A stretch of 9,206 nt of DNA, taken from a virus. Lineage: Duplodnaviria > Heunggongvirae > Uroviricota > Caudoviricetes. The notes below the pieces were generated by a model that ran no database searches, was not told the DNA's origin, and saw only the letters and a program-made list of their open reading frames with translations. Numbering within the stretch: position 1 is the first letter of the stretch; every line of letters starts with the position of its first letter. This document shows, one piece after another, positions 938 through 7,888 of this stretch. Made by a program: the position numbers and the translations under genes. The DNA is taken from positions 1 to 9,206 of IMG/VR virus record IMGVR_UViG_2534681940_000023. One strand, written 5' to 3'.

Positions 938-1327
938 TCAGGCGGCTGCACCCGCCGTTTTCTCGTACTTACTGATAGTGATCTCGACCTTCCCTCCCGG
1001 GATAACCGGTCCCCACTCAACCAGCATTCTTTTCACCTGACTGTCGTCTTCCCACACACCCGCATGGGTCAGGGCGTCAAACAGCGCCTTGTTATAGTTG
1101 TCCAGATCGCGGATCCGGTTATCCGGCGGAAACAACACGATCTCCACTGAAGCAGGTGCCGACGTTGGTTTCGGCAGACGACGTAACTGCTCAACTATTG
1201 CTGCACACGCCGCGCTCTGGAATTTGCGCCCCGCCGCGCTTATCAGGCTCTTACCTGCAAACGCCCCTTTGTTGGGGTGTCGCCAGTACGTGTTCACGCT
1301 GGGCGGAAAAGGCAGGATCAGCTTCAT
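938..1327 (-). CDS. rusA: RusA Holliday-junction resolvase (crossover junction endodeoxyribonuclease)
   Basis: 129 aa; the RIRDLDNYNKALFDALT acidic motif and overall pattern fit the RusA family. Start ATG overlaps the upstream gene's stop as ATGA. Confidence 0.85.
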   Translation of the reverse strand: MKLILPFPPSVNTYWRHPNKGAFAGKSLISAAGRKFQSAACAAIVEQLRRLPKPTSAPASVEIVLFPPDNRIRDLDNYNKALFDALTHAGVWEDDSQVKRMLVEWGPVIPGGKVEITISKYEKTAGAAA

Positions 1328-1650
1328 ACTTTCAGGCCCCTCTCATGTAACCAGTGGGTTGCACGCAGCCTTGCGTTTTCCTCACCGGCAAGCAGTGCGC
1401 GGATAATCCCGACCGCCTCGCTGTCGTCGTCCTTCACCGCGGTATGAAGCGTTATCCCCCGGGCCACGCCACGCTTTATCGTGATGACGCCTTTTTTCTC
1501 CAGTGCGCGAAGATGCTCCACCGCTGCATTCACCGAACGGTATCCCAGCATGGTTGCCACCTCCTGATTGGTTGGCGGGAAGCCACGTTCTTTCTGATAA
1601 GAAATCAGCATATCCAACACCTGCTGCTGGCATTGAGTTAACGTCGTCAT
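1324..1650 (-). CDS. LexA-like N-terminal winged-helix DNA-binding protein (no peptidase domain)
   Basis: 108 aa; QQQVLDMLISYQKERGFPPTNQEVATMLGYRSVNAAVEHLRALEKKGVI resembles the LexA DNA-binding domain. ATGA overlap with the Dam gene stop. Confidence 0.6.
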   Translation of the reverse strand: MTTLTQCQQQVLDMLISYQKERGFPPTNQEVATMLGYRSVNAAVEHLRALEKKGVITIKRGVARGITLHTAVKDDDSEAVGIIRALLAGEENARLRATHWLHERGLKV

Positions 1651-3595: not shown

Positions 3596-3786
3596 GGACG
3601 CACCTCCGCCGTTGTGATGTATTTAACCGGGCTGCCTTTCATTGCGATGATTTCACACATCTCCGCTGCTTTACGTTCCGCTGTTTTCCTGGATTTATAG
3701 CGGCGGTGCCAAACAGACGTATCCGTGCGAACTGATACATCGTTTCTGTATTCCGTAGTGGAGATGATGATTTCGTAACTAATCAT
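3592..3786 (-). CDS. Hypothetical protein (64 aa)
   Basis: ATG start overlaps the Rha stop as ATGA (translational coupling). No recognisable family. Confidence 0.5.
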
Positions 3787-4346
3787 GGGCGTACCTCCTT
3801 GTCAGAACCATTCAGCCTGGAATCAACAAGTGCAGCACCAAAAACAGCATCACCTACACGGTCGTACAGTTTGCCAGCCAGCGGAGATTCAACAGCCTTA
3901 AGCATGGGATAAAGCTGGCTTCTCCAGATTTGATGGATTTCACGCAAATGCAGGTATACGCCTCTGGCGTTTTGTGCGACAGATGACATCTCAGCCGCAC
4001 CAGCTCCTGATAAGCTCCTCTCCATCTGGTTAAAGGCATTGATGTATGCCTCTTTGAACCGGGCGGCACGCTTGCCAGTGAAGCCCATAGCAAGGAATGC
4101 GAAGCCGTCGCGGGTGATTTGATAGCAGGGAAGTTTGCGAGTACCGCCGTTGGGCTGGCGTACCAAAATTGATGTCTCCGCAAAATTGCGGGCACAAAAC
4201 TCTGGAGAACAATCCAAAATGCGGATCTTTTTCAGAACATCGTCATGACGTTTAGAGAAGAAGTCAGCAACAGCCAAAGAAGATGTAACAGCCTGACCAT
4301 CAACGATGGCAATTTCAGGTTGAGAGAGAGTTGGGAAAGTAGTCAT
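3783..4346 (-). CDS. rha: Phage regulatory protein Rha (187 aa); C-terminal part of the 553-aa track ORF
   Basis: [32 protein letters not shown] is the Rha N-terminal domain signature, and it starts about 10 residues after the ATG at 4346, as in typical Rha proteins. AGGGG lies 9 nt upstream. Confidence 0.8.
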
Positions 4347-4638
4347 GGTGACAGCCCCTATGTTGAATTCAAAGAACTCACCACATGGGACGCCAATCAC
4401 AGAGGTGGTGAGACGTACAGGGTTGGCGTAACCGGTCAACATAGAACCCGGCGCATCTTGCGATGCCCCTGCACGCCCCACCATAATTTGGACGTAGCAA
4501 TGCTCATGATACGAAAAGACCGCATGAGCGCGGTTATGCTCTATATTGAATTCCAGGACGCCAATCCCGACACCCGCTTTATAAGGTGCCTGAACAGTGT
4601 AACGTCCCGAAATTGAGGAATCAATGTTTTGATAAAAT

Positions 4639-5031
4639 TCAGCGATTAGACGCTTCTTTTCTACCCATATTAACTTTGAACAAGAGCTCCATACGACGAG
4701 TCCAGACACCACGTTCTTTGAGTTGTGCTCTGGCTTCTTCGCGCTCAGATACGGAAGTTCTGACAATACGATTTCCAGCCAGATTGCGGCGATATTCTCC
4801 AAACGCGACTGACTGAAGGTATGCAGCGGAGCTTTTGTACTGATAGATGGCTCTTCGAAGGCTGTTTTTATATTCCTTAGGTATATGTCCGAGATCGGCA
4901 AAAAGCTCATGAACGATATCGTGAACAAGCGGAACAACTTTGTATGGAATAACAAAGAAGCTTTCTGGATAGCGTTCAGCCAATACTTTAATGATTTCTT
5001 TATTTGCAAGATGCCTTGCTTTTCTTCCCAT
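4639..5031 (-). CDS. ProQ/FinO-domain RNA-binding protein (130 aa)
   Basis: [17 protein letters not shown]...[18 protein letters not shown]...GNRIV...EEARAQLKE parallels the ProQ N-terminal FinO-like domain (KEVIAFLAERFP...LRSALRLYTSSWRYLYGV...EHARKQLEE, from memory). GGAG SD about 10 nt upstream of the ATG. Confidence 0.75.
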
Positions 5032-5091
5032 ATACCATTCTCCATTACTCCAGATATCAGAATGATATATCCAGGTTCAAGCAGTTCAAGC

Positions 5092-5444
5092 TTATGCTGG
5101 TGCTTCGCACTCAACAAAATCACGACGAAACAACCACAGCGGGCTGAAGCATTCATGCGGATAACCATCACGCAGGTAAATAACCCGCTGTGTTTCCGGT
5201 TCCCAACGAATGACTCTGACGGGCACTCCGTAGTGATCTTTGAACCAGCGGTTAACTTGTTGCAAAGGACTGTCTCCTTCTGCCGGTTGAAATCACCCAC
5301 AGCCCACTCTGCAAATCTGTGGGTTACAATTTCCCTGTCACCTGGTACATTCACTGCATAGCAATACTCCACCTTCGCTTTTCCACCCGGTACAGGAAGC
5401 GCAATCAGTTGCGAGCGACGGTAGTGTGTTGTTAAACTGTTCAT
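5092..5444 (-). pseudogene. Frameshifted gene of unknown function: N-terminal 50-60 aa in one frame, C-terminal 57 aa in the -1 frame
   Basis: ATG 5444 is ATGA-coupled to the upstream gene and encodes a protein-like [52 protein letters not shown], after which that frame turns low-complexity. The -1 frame from about 5292 to the TAA at 5092..5094 encodes [56 protein letters not shown]. Confidence 0.45.
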
Positions 5445-6082
5445 GCGTTAGTTTCTCCACAACCAGAAGCAATCGACGCCACGACGCCCGGAGCTGCACA
5501 CTCGCGGGCGTTACTCTTTTCCGGCGCACAAAAAACACGAAATAACAGTGTTAAATGCTCCTTCCACTTCGCCATTACTTGGTAGCTGTTCTCTTCGATT
5601 TGCTCACGCTCAGCCTGGTCAATAACTCCATCAGCAGTTGCCTTGCGTAAGTACTGGGAATGCTTGCCAATCCATTCTATTGACTCCATCAGCCGCTGAT
5701 TAATGTCACCATTGTCAATGTCATCAATGACCACCAGCGGCACAAACACCCCATTACTACGACGGGCTATTGCATCCGTTACATGCCTGGTACCACTGGC
5801 ATCCTGTAAAACCATGGCCCACTCAAGTGGAAAAATTTGATCCCCACCGCTACGCAGTCTGTTATGCAATTGATCTTTTGCTGGGGTGATATCATCAGAT
5901 TTATACAAACCAAGAATTTCTGCTGCTTCCTCATAGCCATGAGGTAAATCAGCAATCGTTCTTCGTATTGCTGCCACCAGCCATGCTGGTTGCTTATCAA
6001 CTTTCCATTCAGGTTCTTTACCCACGTTTAAGCCCTCATATCTGTGGTTTCTGTAAATCGATTTATCCATTAGATTTTTCAT
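5441..6082 (-). CDS. Phage regulatory protein in the CII/YdaT position (213 aa); function assignment tentative
   Basis: Sits immediately downstream of cro-like and upstream of the replication genes; the AAEILGL segment looks helix-turn-helix-like. Start taken at ATG 6082 (alternatives 6070 or the track's 6139, which would overlap cro by 77 nt). Confidence 0.5.
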
Positions 6083-6263
6083 AAAGCTCAGGTTTAAATG
6101 GCAACCGTCCGCAAGTTCTATATGCAGCCTCTGCTGCACGTCCTTTTGGAATTAACTGGCCAGGACGGTTTCGCCACTGATAAACGGCTTCAGTTGTTAT
6201 GCCGAAAAAAGCAGCAACTTTCTCAATGCTGCCGAAGTAGCTTTCGATATCGTCAGTCGTCAT
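6063..6263 (-). CDS. cro: Cro-like HTH transcriptional regulator (66 aa)
   Basis: Small HTH protein (SIEKVAAFFGITTEAVYQWRNR) divergent from the cI-like gene; GGAGGG SD upstream of ATG 6263. Confidence 0.75.
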   Translation of the reverse strand: MTTDDIESYFGSIEKVAAFFGITTEAVYQWRNRPGQLIPKGRAAEAAYRTCGRLPFKPELYEKSNG

Positions 6264-6360: not shown

Positions 6361-6987
6361 ATGGAAACGGTTGGTCAGCGTATAAAAGCTCTGAGAAGAG
6401 TTACCAGAACGTCCCAGAAAGAATTGGGTAAATTTTGTGGAGTAAGTGACGTTGCTGTGGGGTACTGGGAGAAAGACATCAATGTCCCTGGTGGGGAAGC
6501 ACTTTCAAAATTAGCGAAGTTCTTCAATACGTCAATAGATTACATTCTTTATGGTGCGGAGTTTGAAGGCAAACTCGTCACAAACATGCGCAGAGTTCCT
6601 GTAATCTCGTGGGTTCAGGCTGGGCAGTTTACTGAGTGCAGGACAGCAGAAGTGTTTAGTGAAGTAGACAAGTGGGTAGATACATCATTAAAGATTGGTG
6701 ATAACTCATTTGCATTGGAGGTTAAAGGCGACTCCATGACTAACCCTAACGGCCTCCCAACAATACCAGAAGGCGCAACAGTGATTGTAGATCCTGATGC
6801 AGAACCCCGGCATGGAAAAATAGTCATCGCTAGACTTGATGGAACAAACGAAGCCACAGTAAAAAAATTAGTTATCGATGGCCCTCAAAAGTTTTTAGTG
6901 CCATTAAATCCCCGGTACCCCAACATTCCGATCAATGGTAATTGCCTCATCATTGGTGTAGTCAAAGGAGTTCAATACGAACTCTAG
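6361..6987 (+). CDS. cI-like prophage repressor, HTH N-terminal domain with S24 (LexA-like) autopeptidase C-terminal domain
   Basis: 208 aa; N-terminal HTH; Ala87-Gly88 candidate cleavage site (VQAG); Ser125 in GDSM and Lys168/169 (VKKL) match the S24 catalytic dyad. Confidence 0.9.
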   Translation: METVGQRIKALRRVTRTSQKELGKFCGVSDVAVGYWEKDINVPGGEALSKLAKFFNTSIDYILYGAEFEGKLVTNMRRVPVISWVQAGQFTECRTAEVFSEVDKWVDTSLKIGDNSFALEVKGDSMTNPNGLPTIPEGATVIVDPDAEPRHGKIVIARLDGTNEATVKKLVIDGPQKFLVPLNPRYPNIPINGNCLIIGVVKGVQYEL

Positions 6988-7533: not shown

Positions 7534-7739
7534 CTCACGTACCTACCACCTCGCCTGATGTGGCTAAAAGCAGGCACATAACAGCTAAGTATTTTCAACC
7601 AGAGAGAATCCTTAGCGTTGTGGTGAATGCGGCTCAGCGCACGCGGGTTAAGGTTGAGACTGACAGTCGACCTTCTGTGGATACCCACCCGCCTGGTGTG
7701 CAACCTTCGCCAGGCACCGGGAGGCACCCGGCACCACAA

Positions 7740-7799
7740 CAGCCACTGCTTTGGCGGTACCAGTTTGTACACTTGCTTCCGGCTGGTACCGCTCTTTTT
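7740..7799 (+). ncRNA. dicF: DicF-like small RNA (candidate)
   Basis: GCTTTGGCGGTACCAGTTTGTAC... closely resembles the core of E. coli DicF (GTTTGGCGGTATCAGTTTTAC..., from memory) and ends in an intrinsic terminator. The 5' end is not determinable from sequence. Confidence 0.45.
7754..7799 (+). terminator. Rho-independent terminator of the DicF-like sRNA
   Basis: 10-bp GC-rich stem GCGGTACCAG (7754..7763) pairing with CTGGTACCGC (7783..7792), 19-nt loop, then TCTTTTT (7793..7799). Confidence 0.6.
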
Positions 7800-7888
7800 A
7801 CAAAACAGAGAAGAGCATCACCGGACGACGGGCTCATAACCCAATCCACCCGGGCGGCTGCCACCGCAGGTGCTCTTCTCTGTTTTGT
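7800..7888 (+). repeat. 18-bp perfect inverted repeat (ACAAAACAGAGAAGAGCA / TGCTCTTCTCTGTTTTGT) with 53-nt spacer; candidate long RNA hairpin
   Basis: Left arm 7800..7817 is the exact reverse complement of right arm 7871..7888. The stem can extend with G-U pairs into the terminator U-tract. It lies 35-50 nt upstream of the RBS of the next gene. Confidence 0.8.

What the first reader, a model, noticed from the sequence alone, without database searches (positions are those of the whole stretch)
5092..5444. Gene split by an apparent frameshift, hidden inside the artefactual 553-aa ORF
The N-terminal ~55 aa (frame of ATG 5444) and the C-terminal 57 aa (-1 frame, ending at TAA 5092) both look like real protein, while the continuation of each frame across the other does not. 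The switch lies near 5265..5292. No canonical X-XXY-YYZ slippery heptamer is present, so a mutational frameshift (decaying gene) or a sequencing error is more likely than programmed frameshifting. Alternatively the C-terminal part is an independent 57-aa gene starting at TTG 5265, which has AAGGAG 8 nt upstream.
Basis: seen in the sequence. Interest (0 to 1): 0.4.

Follow-up and report, generated by a model that had tools for sequence, protein, structure and literature searches.

The report
Two overlapping small phage genes
The apparent "frameshifted gene" is really two small prophage genes read in different frames: the counterpart of the E. coli e14 division-inhibitor gene ymfM, and a DUF4222 gene that starts inside it. 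This leaves open which of the two proteins actually blocks cell division.

Summary
The preferred interpretation (mutational frameshift or sequencing error) is not supported.

The window is a 9.2-kb E. coli DEC4C prophage contig, and 5092-5444 is the homolog of e14 ymfM.

- **Frame A (ATG 5444):** it overlaps the ymfL-like stop as ATGA and encodes a conserved ~52-60-aa domain. pN/pS is 0.23-0.47, against about 1 in the other frames. This domain also exists as a stand-alone 58-68-aa protein in other Enterobacterales.
- **The -1 frame (TTG 5265 to TAA 5092):** this is an intact DUF4222 gene with its own AAGGAG Shine-Dalgarno site. Relatives have ATG at exactly this position. pN/pS is 0.16, and the predicted fold is a confident SH3-like barrel.
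- **No frameshift signal:** there is no indel relative to about 2,000 E. coli genomes, no slippery heptamer and no stimulatory RNA structure.

In enterobacterial relatives, frame A reads on through DUF4222 for 52-54 codons, and stop codons are specifically avoided there. I infer a selected overlapping gene pair, with frame A corresponding to the 112-aa YmfM of K-12.

In this window, recombination inside DUF4222 removed the usual frame-A stop. The ORF therefore runs to 553 aa across the ProQ/FinO gene and the isrK and C4 RNA genes into the Rha gene.

All published ymfM constructs I found carry both ORFs.

The parts
5441..6025 (-). YmfL-like (Phage_CP76/CII family) gene. Its TGA stop (5443-5441) overlaps the ATG of the next ORF.
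   Evidence: Pfam PF06892, 28 bits. PGAP annotates the 585-nt homolog in L001 and L003. The GCATGAACA overlap was read directly.
5262..5444 (-). Frame A, the ymfM frame: a conserved small-protein domain (core codons 1-52, linker to codon 61). Codon 61 (TGC, 5264-5262) sits where the Morganella relatives whose DUF4222 start is ATGAAA have a TGA stop.
   Evidence: PHROG 20047 (63-aa profile) E = 1.2e-42 and PHROG 1170 (112 aa) E = 3.1e-35. pN/pS 0.40-0.47 in frame A against 1.0-1.3 in the other frames. Stand-alone 58-68-aa homologs exist. 98.9% identical to K-12 ymfM.
5274..5279 (-). Shine-Dalgarno sequence AAGGAG for DUF4222, 8 nt upstream of TTG 5265.
   Evidence: Read directly. GGAG-type motifs lie upstream of the DUF4222 start in most sampled lineages.
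5092..5265 (-). DUF4222 gene: 57 aa, TTG start, TAA stop 5094-5092, in the -1 frame relative to ATG 5444.
   Evidence: PF13973, 63.2 bits. PHROG 1343 E = 2e-34. An identical 57-aa protein occurs on 119 contigs and is named DUF4222 by NCBI. pN/pS 0.16. AlphaFold2 pLDDT 91.7, a small beta-barrel that begins at residue 2.
5293..5295 (-). TGA stop in the DUF4222 frame. It closes that frame upstream, so any frame switch would have to fall within 5292..5266.
   Evidence: Read directly.
5138..5205 (.). Recombination interval inside DUF4222. Sequence to the right (5600..5138) is e14-like. Sequence to the left (5205..4600) matches the DUF4222-ProQ-Ash/Rha module of strains such as 06-00048.
   Evidence: Megablast split: query positions 1-463 and 396-1001, with no record covering 80% or more of the query. 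Supported by alignment A1.
3783..5444 (-). The 553-aa composite ORF, deposited as EHU99037.1. It is frame A running on without a stop through DUF4222 and ProQ (+1 frame of both), through the isrK and C4 RNA genes, and into the Rha gene in frame.
   Evidence: In relatives frame A normally stops at DUF4222 codon 53-55, giving 109-114 aa.
4639..5031 (-). ProQ/FinO-family gene (130 aa). It is in the same frame as DUF4222 and so out of frame with the 553-aa ORF.
   Evidence: PF04352, 51.7 bits. Frame arithmetic. PGAP annotation in relatives.
4401..4589 (-). isrK (4513-4589) and C4 antisense RNA (4401-4488) genes, both lying inside the 553-aa ORF.
   Evidence: Rfam RF01394, 54.1 bits (gathering 50), and RF01695, 80.1 bits (gathering 45).
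3783..4346 (-). Rha-family antirepressor-type gene. The likely true start is ATG 4346, in frame with the 553-aa ORF.
   Evidence: PF09669, 92.5-95.2 bits, beginning at ORF residue 387. ATG position.

Best explanation
There is no frameshifted gene here. The region holds two separately initiated coding sequences of the early (cro-side) operon of an e14-like lambdoid prophage.

**1. The ymfM-type ORF (frame A).** It starts at ATG 5444 and is translationally coupled to the ymfL-like gene through an ATGA overlap. Its first ~52-60 residues are a conserved small-protein domain that elsewhere exists on its own.

**2. The DUF4222 gene.** This is a 57-aa SH3-like beta-barrel protein. It is translated by internal initiation at TTG 5265, behind its own AAGGAG, in the -1 frame.

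In enterobacterial relatives the first ORF has no stop at the junction: TGC sits where Morganella relatives have TGA. It reads on through DUF4222 in the +1 frame for 52-54 codons to a conserved stop. This gives the ~112-aa protein annotated as YmfM in K-12.

The amino-acid sequence of that tail is free to vary. Stop codons in it are nevertheless avoided, so I infer that the overlap is maintained by selection. That would make this an out-of-frame overlapping gene pair, analogous in layout to lambda Rz/Rz1.

In this particular contig, recombination within DUF4222 (5138-5205) brought in a 3' half from another phage module that lacks the frame-A stop. Frame A therefore stays open for 553 codons. 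I regard that long ORF as a by-product rather than a designed product.

By orthology with e14 ymfM (sfiC), one or both polypeptides probably block FtsZ-ring formation after prophage induction.

**Shown:** the coding status of both frames, the independent start of DUF4222, the absence of an indel or slippery site, the mosaic junction, and the codon pattern at stop-risk sites.
**Inferred:** that selection causes that codon pattern, translation of both frames in vivo, the function, and the fate of the 553-aa ORF.
For: **Not an error or a decaying gene**
- There is no indel relative to K-12 and other E. coli.
- The N-terminal part is present at 95% identity or more in 2,015 E. coli records.
- The exact 553/554-aa ORF occurs on 35 contigs.

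**Frame A is coding**
- pN/pS is 0.40-0.47 (0.23 in stand-alone homologs), against 0.9-1.7 in the other frames.
- A second, diverged N-domain type gives 0.38 against 1.29 and 1.62.
- Stand-alone homologs with their own stop exist. A profile search finds two length classes, roughly 58-68 aa and 111-118 aa.

**DUF4222 is a separate gene**
- Pfam gives 63.2 bits and pN/pS is 0.16.
- ATG replaces TTG at the same position in Phytobacter, Atlantibacter and Citrobacter. All 56 unique IMG/VR sequences have ATG, GTG or TTG there; a GGAG-type motif precedes it in most, but a few junctions are weak.
- PGAP uses the same start.
- The gene also occurs behind Lar or Rha genes.
- AlphaFold2 predicts an autonomous fold with pLDDT 91.7.

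**The overlap appears to be maintained**
- The +1 frame is open for 52-54 codons in all 56 unique DUF4222 sequences listed; the two added sequences that carry the other 3' half (this window and L002) are open for longer.
- The 13-17 lineages separated by pS of 0.4-0.5 or more each have P(open) of 0.035-0.17 under codon resampling.
- The three columns where a purine would create a frame-A stop have 0 of 61 purine-ending codons. All 16 control columns have them, 44.5% overall.
- The xTA codon that makes the frame-A stop at DUF codon 53 is present in 15 of 19 cluster representatives, across Ile, Val and Leu.
- In Morganellaceae the upstream ORF has its own stop, and the +1 frame of DUF4222 carries 2-5 stops in the 46 Morganella-type sequences. 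Three very divergent sequences there (L236-L238) have at most one, near the end.
- A different DUF4222 subfamily (L242) shows the same overlap, with a 114-aa frame-A ORF.

**The 553-aa ORF is a by-product**
- The megablast match is split.
- The ORF crosses ProQ (Pfam), isrK and C4 (Rfam).
Against: - The frame-A tail shows no amino-acid constraint. pN/pS is 3.0, and synonymous divergence in the DUF frame (0.62) is not lower than in the non-overlapping N-domain (0.54). The tail could therefore be a tolerated read-through.
- The stop-avoidance tests treat lineages and columns as partly independent, and no formal phylogenetic model was fitted.
- Part of the conservation of the A at DUF codon 53 could instead reflect a GAGG ribosome-binding site for the downstream gene.
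- In one lineage (P0046; its cluster is recorded on 44 contigs) the upstream ORF is in the same frame as DUF4222 and gives a 109-aa ORF. In-frame fusions therefore do exist.
- The AlphaFold2 model of the N-domain is poor (pLDDT 53.5).
- No expression data were available for either frame.
- The recombinant without the normal frame-A stop survives on 35 contigs, so termination at the usual site is not essential.
Confidence: 0.78

Rival explanations
1. Two independent genes, with the frame-A continuation across DUF4222 being a mere read-through. On this view a stop was lost (TGA to TGC at the junction), the tail has no function, and its openness reflects shared ancestry and codon habits rather than selection.
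For: The tail sequence is unconstrained: frame A pN/pS is 3.0, and DUF-frame pS (0.62) is not depressed. The tail length changes freely when recombination or deletion occurs: 75 and 78 aa in L010 and L011, and 553 aa here. Stand-alone N-domain proteins do without a tail. A single sequence has a 7-8% chance of an open +1 frame.
Against: All 61 unique sequences and 13-17 deep lineages are open. The three risk columns have 0 of 61 purine-ending codons, while all 16 control columns have them. The stop position is conserved across Ile, Val and Leu codons. The same layout occurs over a different DUF4222 subfamily. The Morganellaceae clade shows no such avoidance.
Confidence: 0.15
2. Programmed -1 ribosomal frameshifting joins the N-terminal domain to DUF4222 and produces a fusion protein of about 115 aa.
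For: The two conserved coding segments abut in a -1 relationship in many lineages. In-frame proteins of about 107-119 aa exist in databases. T_TTC (5292) and A_AAG (5241) tetramers are present in frame A.
Against: Frame A contains no X_XXY_YYZ heptamer. The linker sequences share no slippery motif across lineages, and the two tetramers are not conserved. The RNA fold of 5200-5310 has z = -0.66. DUF4222 has its own conserved start codon, usually with a Shine-Dalgarno-like motif, and folds autonomously from residue 2. The near-identical in-frame database proteins are single-contig variants that switch frame at different places. Frameshifting would not explain why frame A stays open for 52 further codons.
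Confidence: 0.04
3. A single ancestral gene of about 115 aa was broken by a 1-nt indel (a decaying gene), or the contig carries a sequencing error.
For: The layout looks like a frameshift, and one lineage has an in-frame 109-aa ORF.
Against: The layout is identical, with no indel, in K-12 and thousands of genomes. Both halves remain under purifying selection in lineages that differ at about half of their synonymous sites. Both halves exist as separate genes elsewhere. The DUF4222 start codon and, in most lineages, its Shine-Dalgarno-like motif are conserved. In the in-frame lineage the N-part is strongly diverged, and its relative P0114 carries extra frame switches.
Confidence: 0.03

Closest known systems
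E. coli K-12 e14 prophage ymfM (b1148), 'cell division inhibitor YmfM' (SfiC); Ansari et al., bioRxiv 10.1101/2020.11.19.390815
   Same: Same position directly after ymfL, with the same ATGA overlap. The 179-nt N-terminal part is 98.9% identical. The annotated K-12 frame is the window's frame A. K-12 also carries the unannotated DUF4222 ORF in the -1 frame.
   Different: K-12 frame A stops after 112 aa, whereas here it runs to 553 aa because the 3' half of DUF4222 comes from another module. The K-12 DUF4222 is 59 aa with a different C-terminus. The function was tested only in K-12, and only with constructs that carry both ORFs.
Pfam PF13973 (DUF4222) / PHROG 1343
   Same: The 57-aa ORF matches over 49 of 53 profile positions at 63.2 bits. 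PGAP names identical proteins DUF4222.
   Different: Nothing structural differs. The function of the family is unknown. Here, and in all e14-like loci, the gene lies inside another ORF in a different frame, which the family description does not record.
PHROG 20047 (63-aa profile): the stand-alone small-protein family found after cII-like genes
   Same: Residues 1-61 of frame A match it at E = 1.2e-42. Stand-alone members have the same position and the same MNSLT/MSNLT start at the stop of the upstream gene.
   Different: Stand-alone members end after 58-68 aa with their own stop. Here the stop is absent and the ORF continues into DUF4222.
Phage lambda Rz/Rz1 (a gene embedded out of frame in another gene; comparison from my own knowledge)
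   Same: Two proteins are read from the same DNA in different frames. The inner gene has its own ribosome-binding site inside the outer gene.
   Different: The proteins and functions are unrelated. In K-12-type loci DUF4222 extends 20 nt beyond the frame-A stop, so this is a partial overlap of 160 nt rather than full embedding. The outer tail shows only stop avoidance, with no sequence conservation.
dnaX / IS-element type programmed -1 frameshift sites (comparison from my own knowledge)
   Same: The two coding segments stand in a -1 relationship.
   Different: There is no slippery heptamer, no stimulatory structure and no conserved motif.

Membership tests
DUF4222 (PF13973) | Match to the Pfam HMM above the gathering score | tested here: met
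   63.2 bits against a cut-off of 27, E = 1.6e-17, residues 2-52.
DUF4222 (PF13973) | Intact, independently startable ORF of family-typical length (about 57-85 aa) | tested here: met
   57 aa with TTG plus AAGGAG. Relatives have ATG at the same position. An identical protein is found on 119 contigs.
e14 ymfM ortholog (K-12 b1148) | Sequence identity and position directly after ymfL | tested here: met
   98.9% nucleotide identity over 179 nt, with the same ATGA overlap with ymfL.
e14 ymfM ortholog (K-12 b1148) | ORF of about 112 aa ending at the conserved stop inside DUF4222 | tested here: not met
   The stop is absent and the ORF is 553 aa, because the 3' half of DUF4222 has been replaced.
e14 ymfM ortholog (K-12 b1148) | Expression blocks Z-ring formation and causes filamentation | not testable with these tools
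   Shown only for K-12 clones that contain both ORFs.
Stand-alone N-domain family (PHROG 20047) | Profile match over the whole 63-aa model | tested here: met
   E = 1.2e-42, profile positions 1-61 of 63.
Stand-alone N-domain family (PHROG 20047) | Own stop codon after about 58-68 aa | tested here: not met
   TGC (5264-5262) sits at the position of the Morganella TGA, and the ORF continues.
Programmed -1 ribosomal frameshift site | Slippery X_XXY_YYZ heptamer in the zero frame within the overlap | tested here: not met
   None anywhere in 5444..5092.
Programmed -1 ribosomal frameshift site | Stimulatory downstream RNA structure | tested here: not met
   MFE z-score of -0.66 for 5200-5310.
Programmed -1 ribosomal frameshift site | Conservation of the shift site across homologs | tested here: not met
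   Linker sequences differ in every lineage.
Frameshifted pseudogene | An indel relative to intact homologs, with relaxed constraint afterwards | tested here: not met
   No indel against K-12 and other E. coli. Both parts remain under purifying selection.
Out-of-frame overlapping (dual-coding) phage gene pair | Both frames show evidence of selection over the shared bases | tested here: inconclusive
   The DUF frame gives pN/pS of 0.16. Frame A shows only stop avoidance (0 of 61 at the risk columns, against purine-ending codons in all 16 control columns) and a conserved stop position. It shows no amino-acid constraint.
Out-of-frame overlapping (dual-coding) phage gene pair | Both products are made in vivo | not testable with these tools
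   No ribosome-profiling or proteomic data were available.

The most novel reading that the evidence does not exclude
The locus known as ymfM/sfiC would be a conserved dual-coding unit. An outer protein of about 112 aa would have its C-terminal half overprinted on the gene for a DUF4222 beta-barrel protein. The DUF4222 protein, rather than (or together with) the annotated YmfM, would then be the SOS-inducible inhibitor of FtsZ-ring formation. The stop-free outer frame would be kept by selection for a reason not yet known, for example control of DUF4222 initiation by ribosomes that pass over its start.
Probability: 0.3. Interest if true: 0.6.

Novelty: new variant of a known kind. Interest (0 to 1): 0.45.

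Why it matters
- **Annotation conflict.** K-12 annotates only the 112-aa frame as 'cell division inhibitor YmfM'. In the RefSeq records examined here, PGAP mostly annotates only DUF4222. GenBank also holds the 553-aa composite as a protein. The comparative data indicate that the first two are real and the third is a by-product.
- **Attribution of the phenotype.** The clones I could check (the pBAD24-ymfM clone and the 2013 library clone) contain both ORFs, and the 2018 UTI89 screen resolved only the ymfN-ymfK region. Assigning the SfiC phenotype to the annotated YmfM polypeptide is therefore untested.
- **The question is directly testable.** A single base change, TGC to TGT at the junction, is silent in frame A. 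It turns DUF4222 codon 2 (CAA here, CGA in K-12) into a stop.
- **A clean natural example.** Different clades keep the upstream small gene's stop (Morganellaceae) or lack it (the e14-like Enterobacteriaceae clade). Only the second group shows stop-codon avoidance in the overprinted frame.

Tried and rejected
- **Search with an artificial N-domain+DUF4222 fusion.** It returned about 10 near-full-length in-frame proteins. The ones close to e14 (P0001-P0006) are single-contig entries that switch frame at different points. I take them to be indel variants or assembly errors, not an ancestral intact gene.
- **The P0046 lineage.** Here the upstream ORF really is in frame. Its N-part is strongly diverged, however, and its relative P0114 has further frame switches.
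- **Frameshift signals.** A heptamer scan, an RNA fold and a terminator/promoter scan showed nothing specific to the junction.
- **Structure of the N-domain.** Confidence was too low (pLDDT 53.5) to use.
- **Fold searches with the DUF4222 model.** PDB and viral models gave only weak, generic SH3/Tudor/KOW/DUF1653-like barrel matches (E of 0.002 or worse) and no functional lead.
- **NCBIfam.** No family matched either protein.
- **The stop-free +1 frame of ProQ.** I tried to test it in diverged relatives. Only near-identical loci exist in IMG/VR and none in the phage collection, so this stays unexplained.
- **Literature.** No paper in the held library discusses the two frames of ymfM.

Full report
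**Context**

The window is the complete 9,206-nt contig of E. coli DEC4C. Its 553-aa ORF is deposited as EHU99037.1.

The contig carries the early region of an e14-like lambdoid prophage. A LexA/cI-type repressor lies on the plus strand (6361-6987). The minus strand carries, in order:
- cro (6063-6263);
- a YmfL/CII-like gene (5441-6025);
- the flagged region;
- a ProQ/FinO gene (4639-5031);
- the isrK and C4 RNA genes;
- a Rha-family gene, followed by replication and other early genes.

**Checking the observation**

All the coordinates are right.
- ATG 5444 overlaps the TGA of the ymfL-like gene.
- The ORF from TTG 5265 to TAA 5092 is in the -1 frame and matches Pfam DUF4222 at 63.2 bits.
- AAGGAG lies 8 nt upstream of that TTG.
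- The DUF frame is closed upstream by TGA 5295-5293.
- Frame A contains no X_XXY_YYZ heptamer anywhere between 5444 and 5092.

**What the region corresponds to**

Megablast against complete E. coli genomes splits the region in two. Positions 5600-5138 match e14-like prophages (YmfL plus DUF4222). Positions 5205-4600 match a DUF4222-ProQ-Ash/Rha module found behind unrelated genes. The window is therefore a recombinant, with the junction inside DUF4222.

In K-12 the homologous stretch is ymfM (b1148), annotated as a 112-aa 'cell division inhibitor'. Its frame is the window's frame A. PGAP annotates other E. coli differently. It calls only the DUF4222 ORF, starting at the position of TTG 5265, and leaves 175 nt after ymfL empty.

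The window, K-12 and two further strains align across the junction without any indel. The 179-nt N-terminal part occurs at 95% identity or more in 2,015 E. coli records. A sequencing error or a private mutation is thereby excluded.

**Is the N-terminal part coding, and is it a separate gene?**

A scan of species-representative genomes found 15 loci.
- In Erwinia, Klebsiella spallanzanii, Izhakiella, Scandinavium and Mixta, the domain is a 65-aa ORF with its own stop and no DUF4222 behind it.
- In Morganella it is 63 aa, and its TGA overlaps the ATG of a DUF4222 gene.

Nei-Gojobori proportions over codons 2-51 give pN/pS of 0.40-0.47 in frame A (0.23 among the stand-alone genes). The other two frames give 0.9-1.7.

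A protein search with a stand-alone member found 61-68-aa proteins in Raoultella, Klebsiella aerogenes, Lelliottia, Salmonella, Erwinia, Enterobacter and Cedecea. A profile search of 1.8 billion representatives found 77 clusters in two main length classes, roughly 58-68 aa and 111-118 aa.

PHROGs holds both forms: family 20047 with a 63-aa profile and family 1170 with a 112-aa profile.

**Is DUF4222 a separate gene?**

- Its frame gives pN/pS of 0.16 over the overlap, against 3.0 for frame A.
- Phytobacter, Atlantibacter and Citrobacter relatives have ATG exactly where the window has TTG, preceded by GGAG-type motifs.
- All 56 unique IMG/VR sequences have ATG, GTG or TTG there. Most also have a Shine-Dalgarno-like motif, though a few junctions are weak.
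- The gene also occurs behind Lar or Rha genes.
- AlphaFold2 gives a compact five-strand barrel plus a short helix that starts at residue 2, with pLDDT 91.7. Only weak SH3/Tudor/KOW-like matches were found.

**Frameshifting and decay**

A search with an artificial fusion protein did return in-frame proteins of 102-119 aa. The ones close to e14 are single-contig entries that change frame at different positions. I read them as indel variants or errors.

One lineage (P0046; its cluster is recorded on 44 contigs) has the upstream ORF genuinely in frame with DUF4222. Its N-part is strongly diverged, and a relative shows further frame switches.

The linker has no conserved slippery motif. Its predicted RNA structure is unremarkable, with z = -0.66.

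**An unexpected result: frame A is kept open**

In all 56 unique DUF4222 sequences from IMG/VR, the +1 frame (frame A) is open for 52-54 codons from the DUF start. It then stops at the same place. Each of the 17 representative loci I translated has an upstream ORF in frame A that begins at the stop of the cII-like gene. These include two strongly diverged N-domain types. One of those types is itself coding in frame A, with pN/pS of 0.38 against 1.29 and 1.62.

Several tests address whether this openness could be chance.
- Resampling synonymous codons gives P(open) of 0.035-0.17 per lineage. There are 13-17 lineages separated by pS of 0.4-0.5 or more, and all are open.
- Within the same alignment of 61 unique sequences (the IMG/VR set plus K-12-type, Atlantibacter, Citrobacter, L002 and the window), three columns are positions where a purine at the third base would create a frame-A stop. 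These have 0 of 61 purine-ending codons. All 16 control degenerate columns have them, 44.5% overall.
- At DUF codon 53 the xTA that forms the frame-A stop is kept in 15 of 19 cluster representatives, across Ile, Val and Leu.
- In Morganellaceae the upstream ORF has its own stop, and the +1 frame of DUF4222 holds 2-5 stops in the 46 Morganella-type sequences. Three very divergent sequences in that set have at most one.
- A locus with a different DUF4222 subfamily shows the same overlap, with a 114-aa frame-A ORF.

Against a functional tail, synonymous divergence in the DUF frame (0.62) is not reduced relative to the non-overlapping N-domain (0.54). Only the openness of the tail appears constrained, not its sequence.

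I infer a selected out-of-frame overlap. This inference is weaker than the rest, because no tree-based model was fitted.

**The 553-aa ORF**

The imported 3' half of DUF4222 lacks the usual frame-A stop. Frame A therefore continues through the ProQ/FinO gene in its +1 frame and across isrK and C4, and it reaches the Rha gene in frame.

The same frame is already open from just upstream of DUF4222 to the end of the Ash gene in the donor-type module (a 433-aa ORF in L002). The chance of an open +1 frame across ProQ is about 0.009 by codon resampling. I could not test this in diverged relatives.

**Function**

The e14 ortholog region causes filamentation by blocking Z-ring formation. The pBAD24-ymfM clone and library clone D1-8E contain both ORFs. 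The UTI89 screen resolved only the whole ymfN-ymfK region. Which polypeptide acts is therefore open.

**Verdict**

- The frameshift or decay reading is rejected.
- The independent-gene reading is confirmed, and is extended to a probable overlapping gene pair.
- The 553-aa ORF is a recombination by-product.

Noticed in passing
window 4401-4602 (-): Complete C4 antisense RNA (4401-4488, 80.1 bits) and isrK (4513-4589, 54.1 bits), plus a weak a1/b1 target-like hit (4550-4602). All lie just upstream of the Rha-family gene (ATG 4346). The arrangement resembles a P1/P7 immI-like or Gifsy-1 isrK-like antirepressor control module.
   Followed up: partly
window 4317-4601 (-): The Pfam Phage_ASH (PF10554) match, at residues 282-376 of the 553-aa ORF, falls on the isrK and C4 RNA genes. 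PGAP annotates 'ash family protein' or a long Rha gene over this stretch in relatives (L002 2063-2731, L100 3063-3926). The Ash 'protein family' may therefore partly be a translation of conserved RNA genes.
   Followed up: partly
window 4639-5031 (-): A ProQ/FinO-domain gene sits directly upstream of the antisense RNA genes, making it a candidate dedicated RNA chaperone for that system. Its +1 frame is free of stops over 130 codons (P about 0.009 by codon resampling). This is why the 553-aa ORF, and a 433-aa ORF in L002, can exist. No diverged relatives were available for a test.
   Followed up: partly
L008 (Phytobacter sp. V91) about 2680-2860; L028 (IMG/VR E. coli prophage): DUF4222 carries a nonsense codon at Trp7 in two unrelated prophages, while the overlapping frame-A ORF stays intact (113 and 112 aa). 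This could reflect counter-selection of a toxic DUF4222, or it could be chance.
   Followed up: no
L239/L240 1501-1830; protein P0114 (Salmonella phage 118970_sal3): This is a lineage in which the upstream ORF is in the same frame as DUF4222, giving a 109-aa ORF (its cluster is recorded on 44 contigs). The related phage protein, named 'putative antirepressor', switches frames twice within the DUF4222 N-terminus.
   Followed up: partly
window 3783-5444 (-); proteins P0121, P0122: The composite ORF is in GenBank as a hypothetical protein (EHU99037.1). A 554-aa relative found on 33 contigs is named 'immunity protein'. Both look like over-long gene calls.
   Followed up: partly
window 1324-1650 (-): A 108-aa ORF whose N-terminus reads like a LexA-type winged-helix DNA-binding domain (MTTLTQCQQQVLDMLISYQKERGFPPTNQEVATMLGYRSVNAAVEHLRALEKKGVI...) and which has no peptidase domain. 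It lies between the methyltransferase gene and a RusA-like gene. This rests on reading the sequence only and was not tested.
   Followed up: no
window 7599-7801 (+): A sub-threshold Rfam match to sRNA STnc100 (36.3 bits, gathering score 47, E = 4e-5) in a GC-rich stretch to the right of the repressor gene.
   Followed up: no
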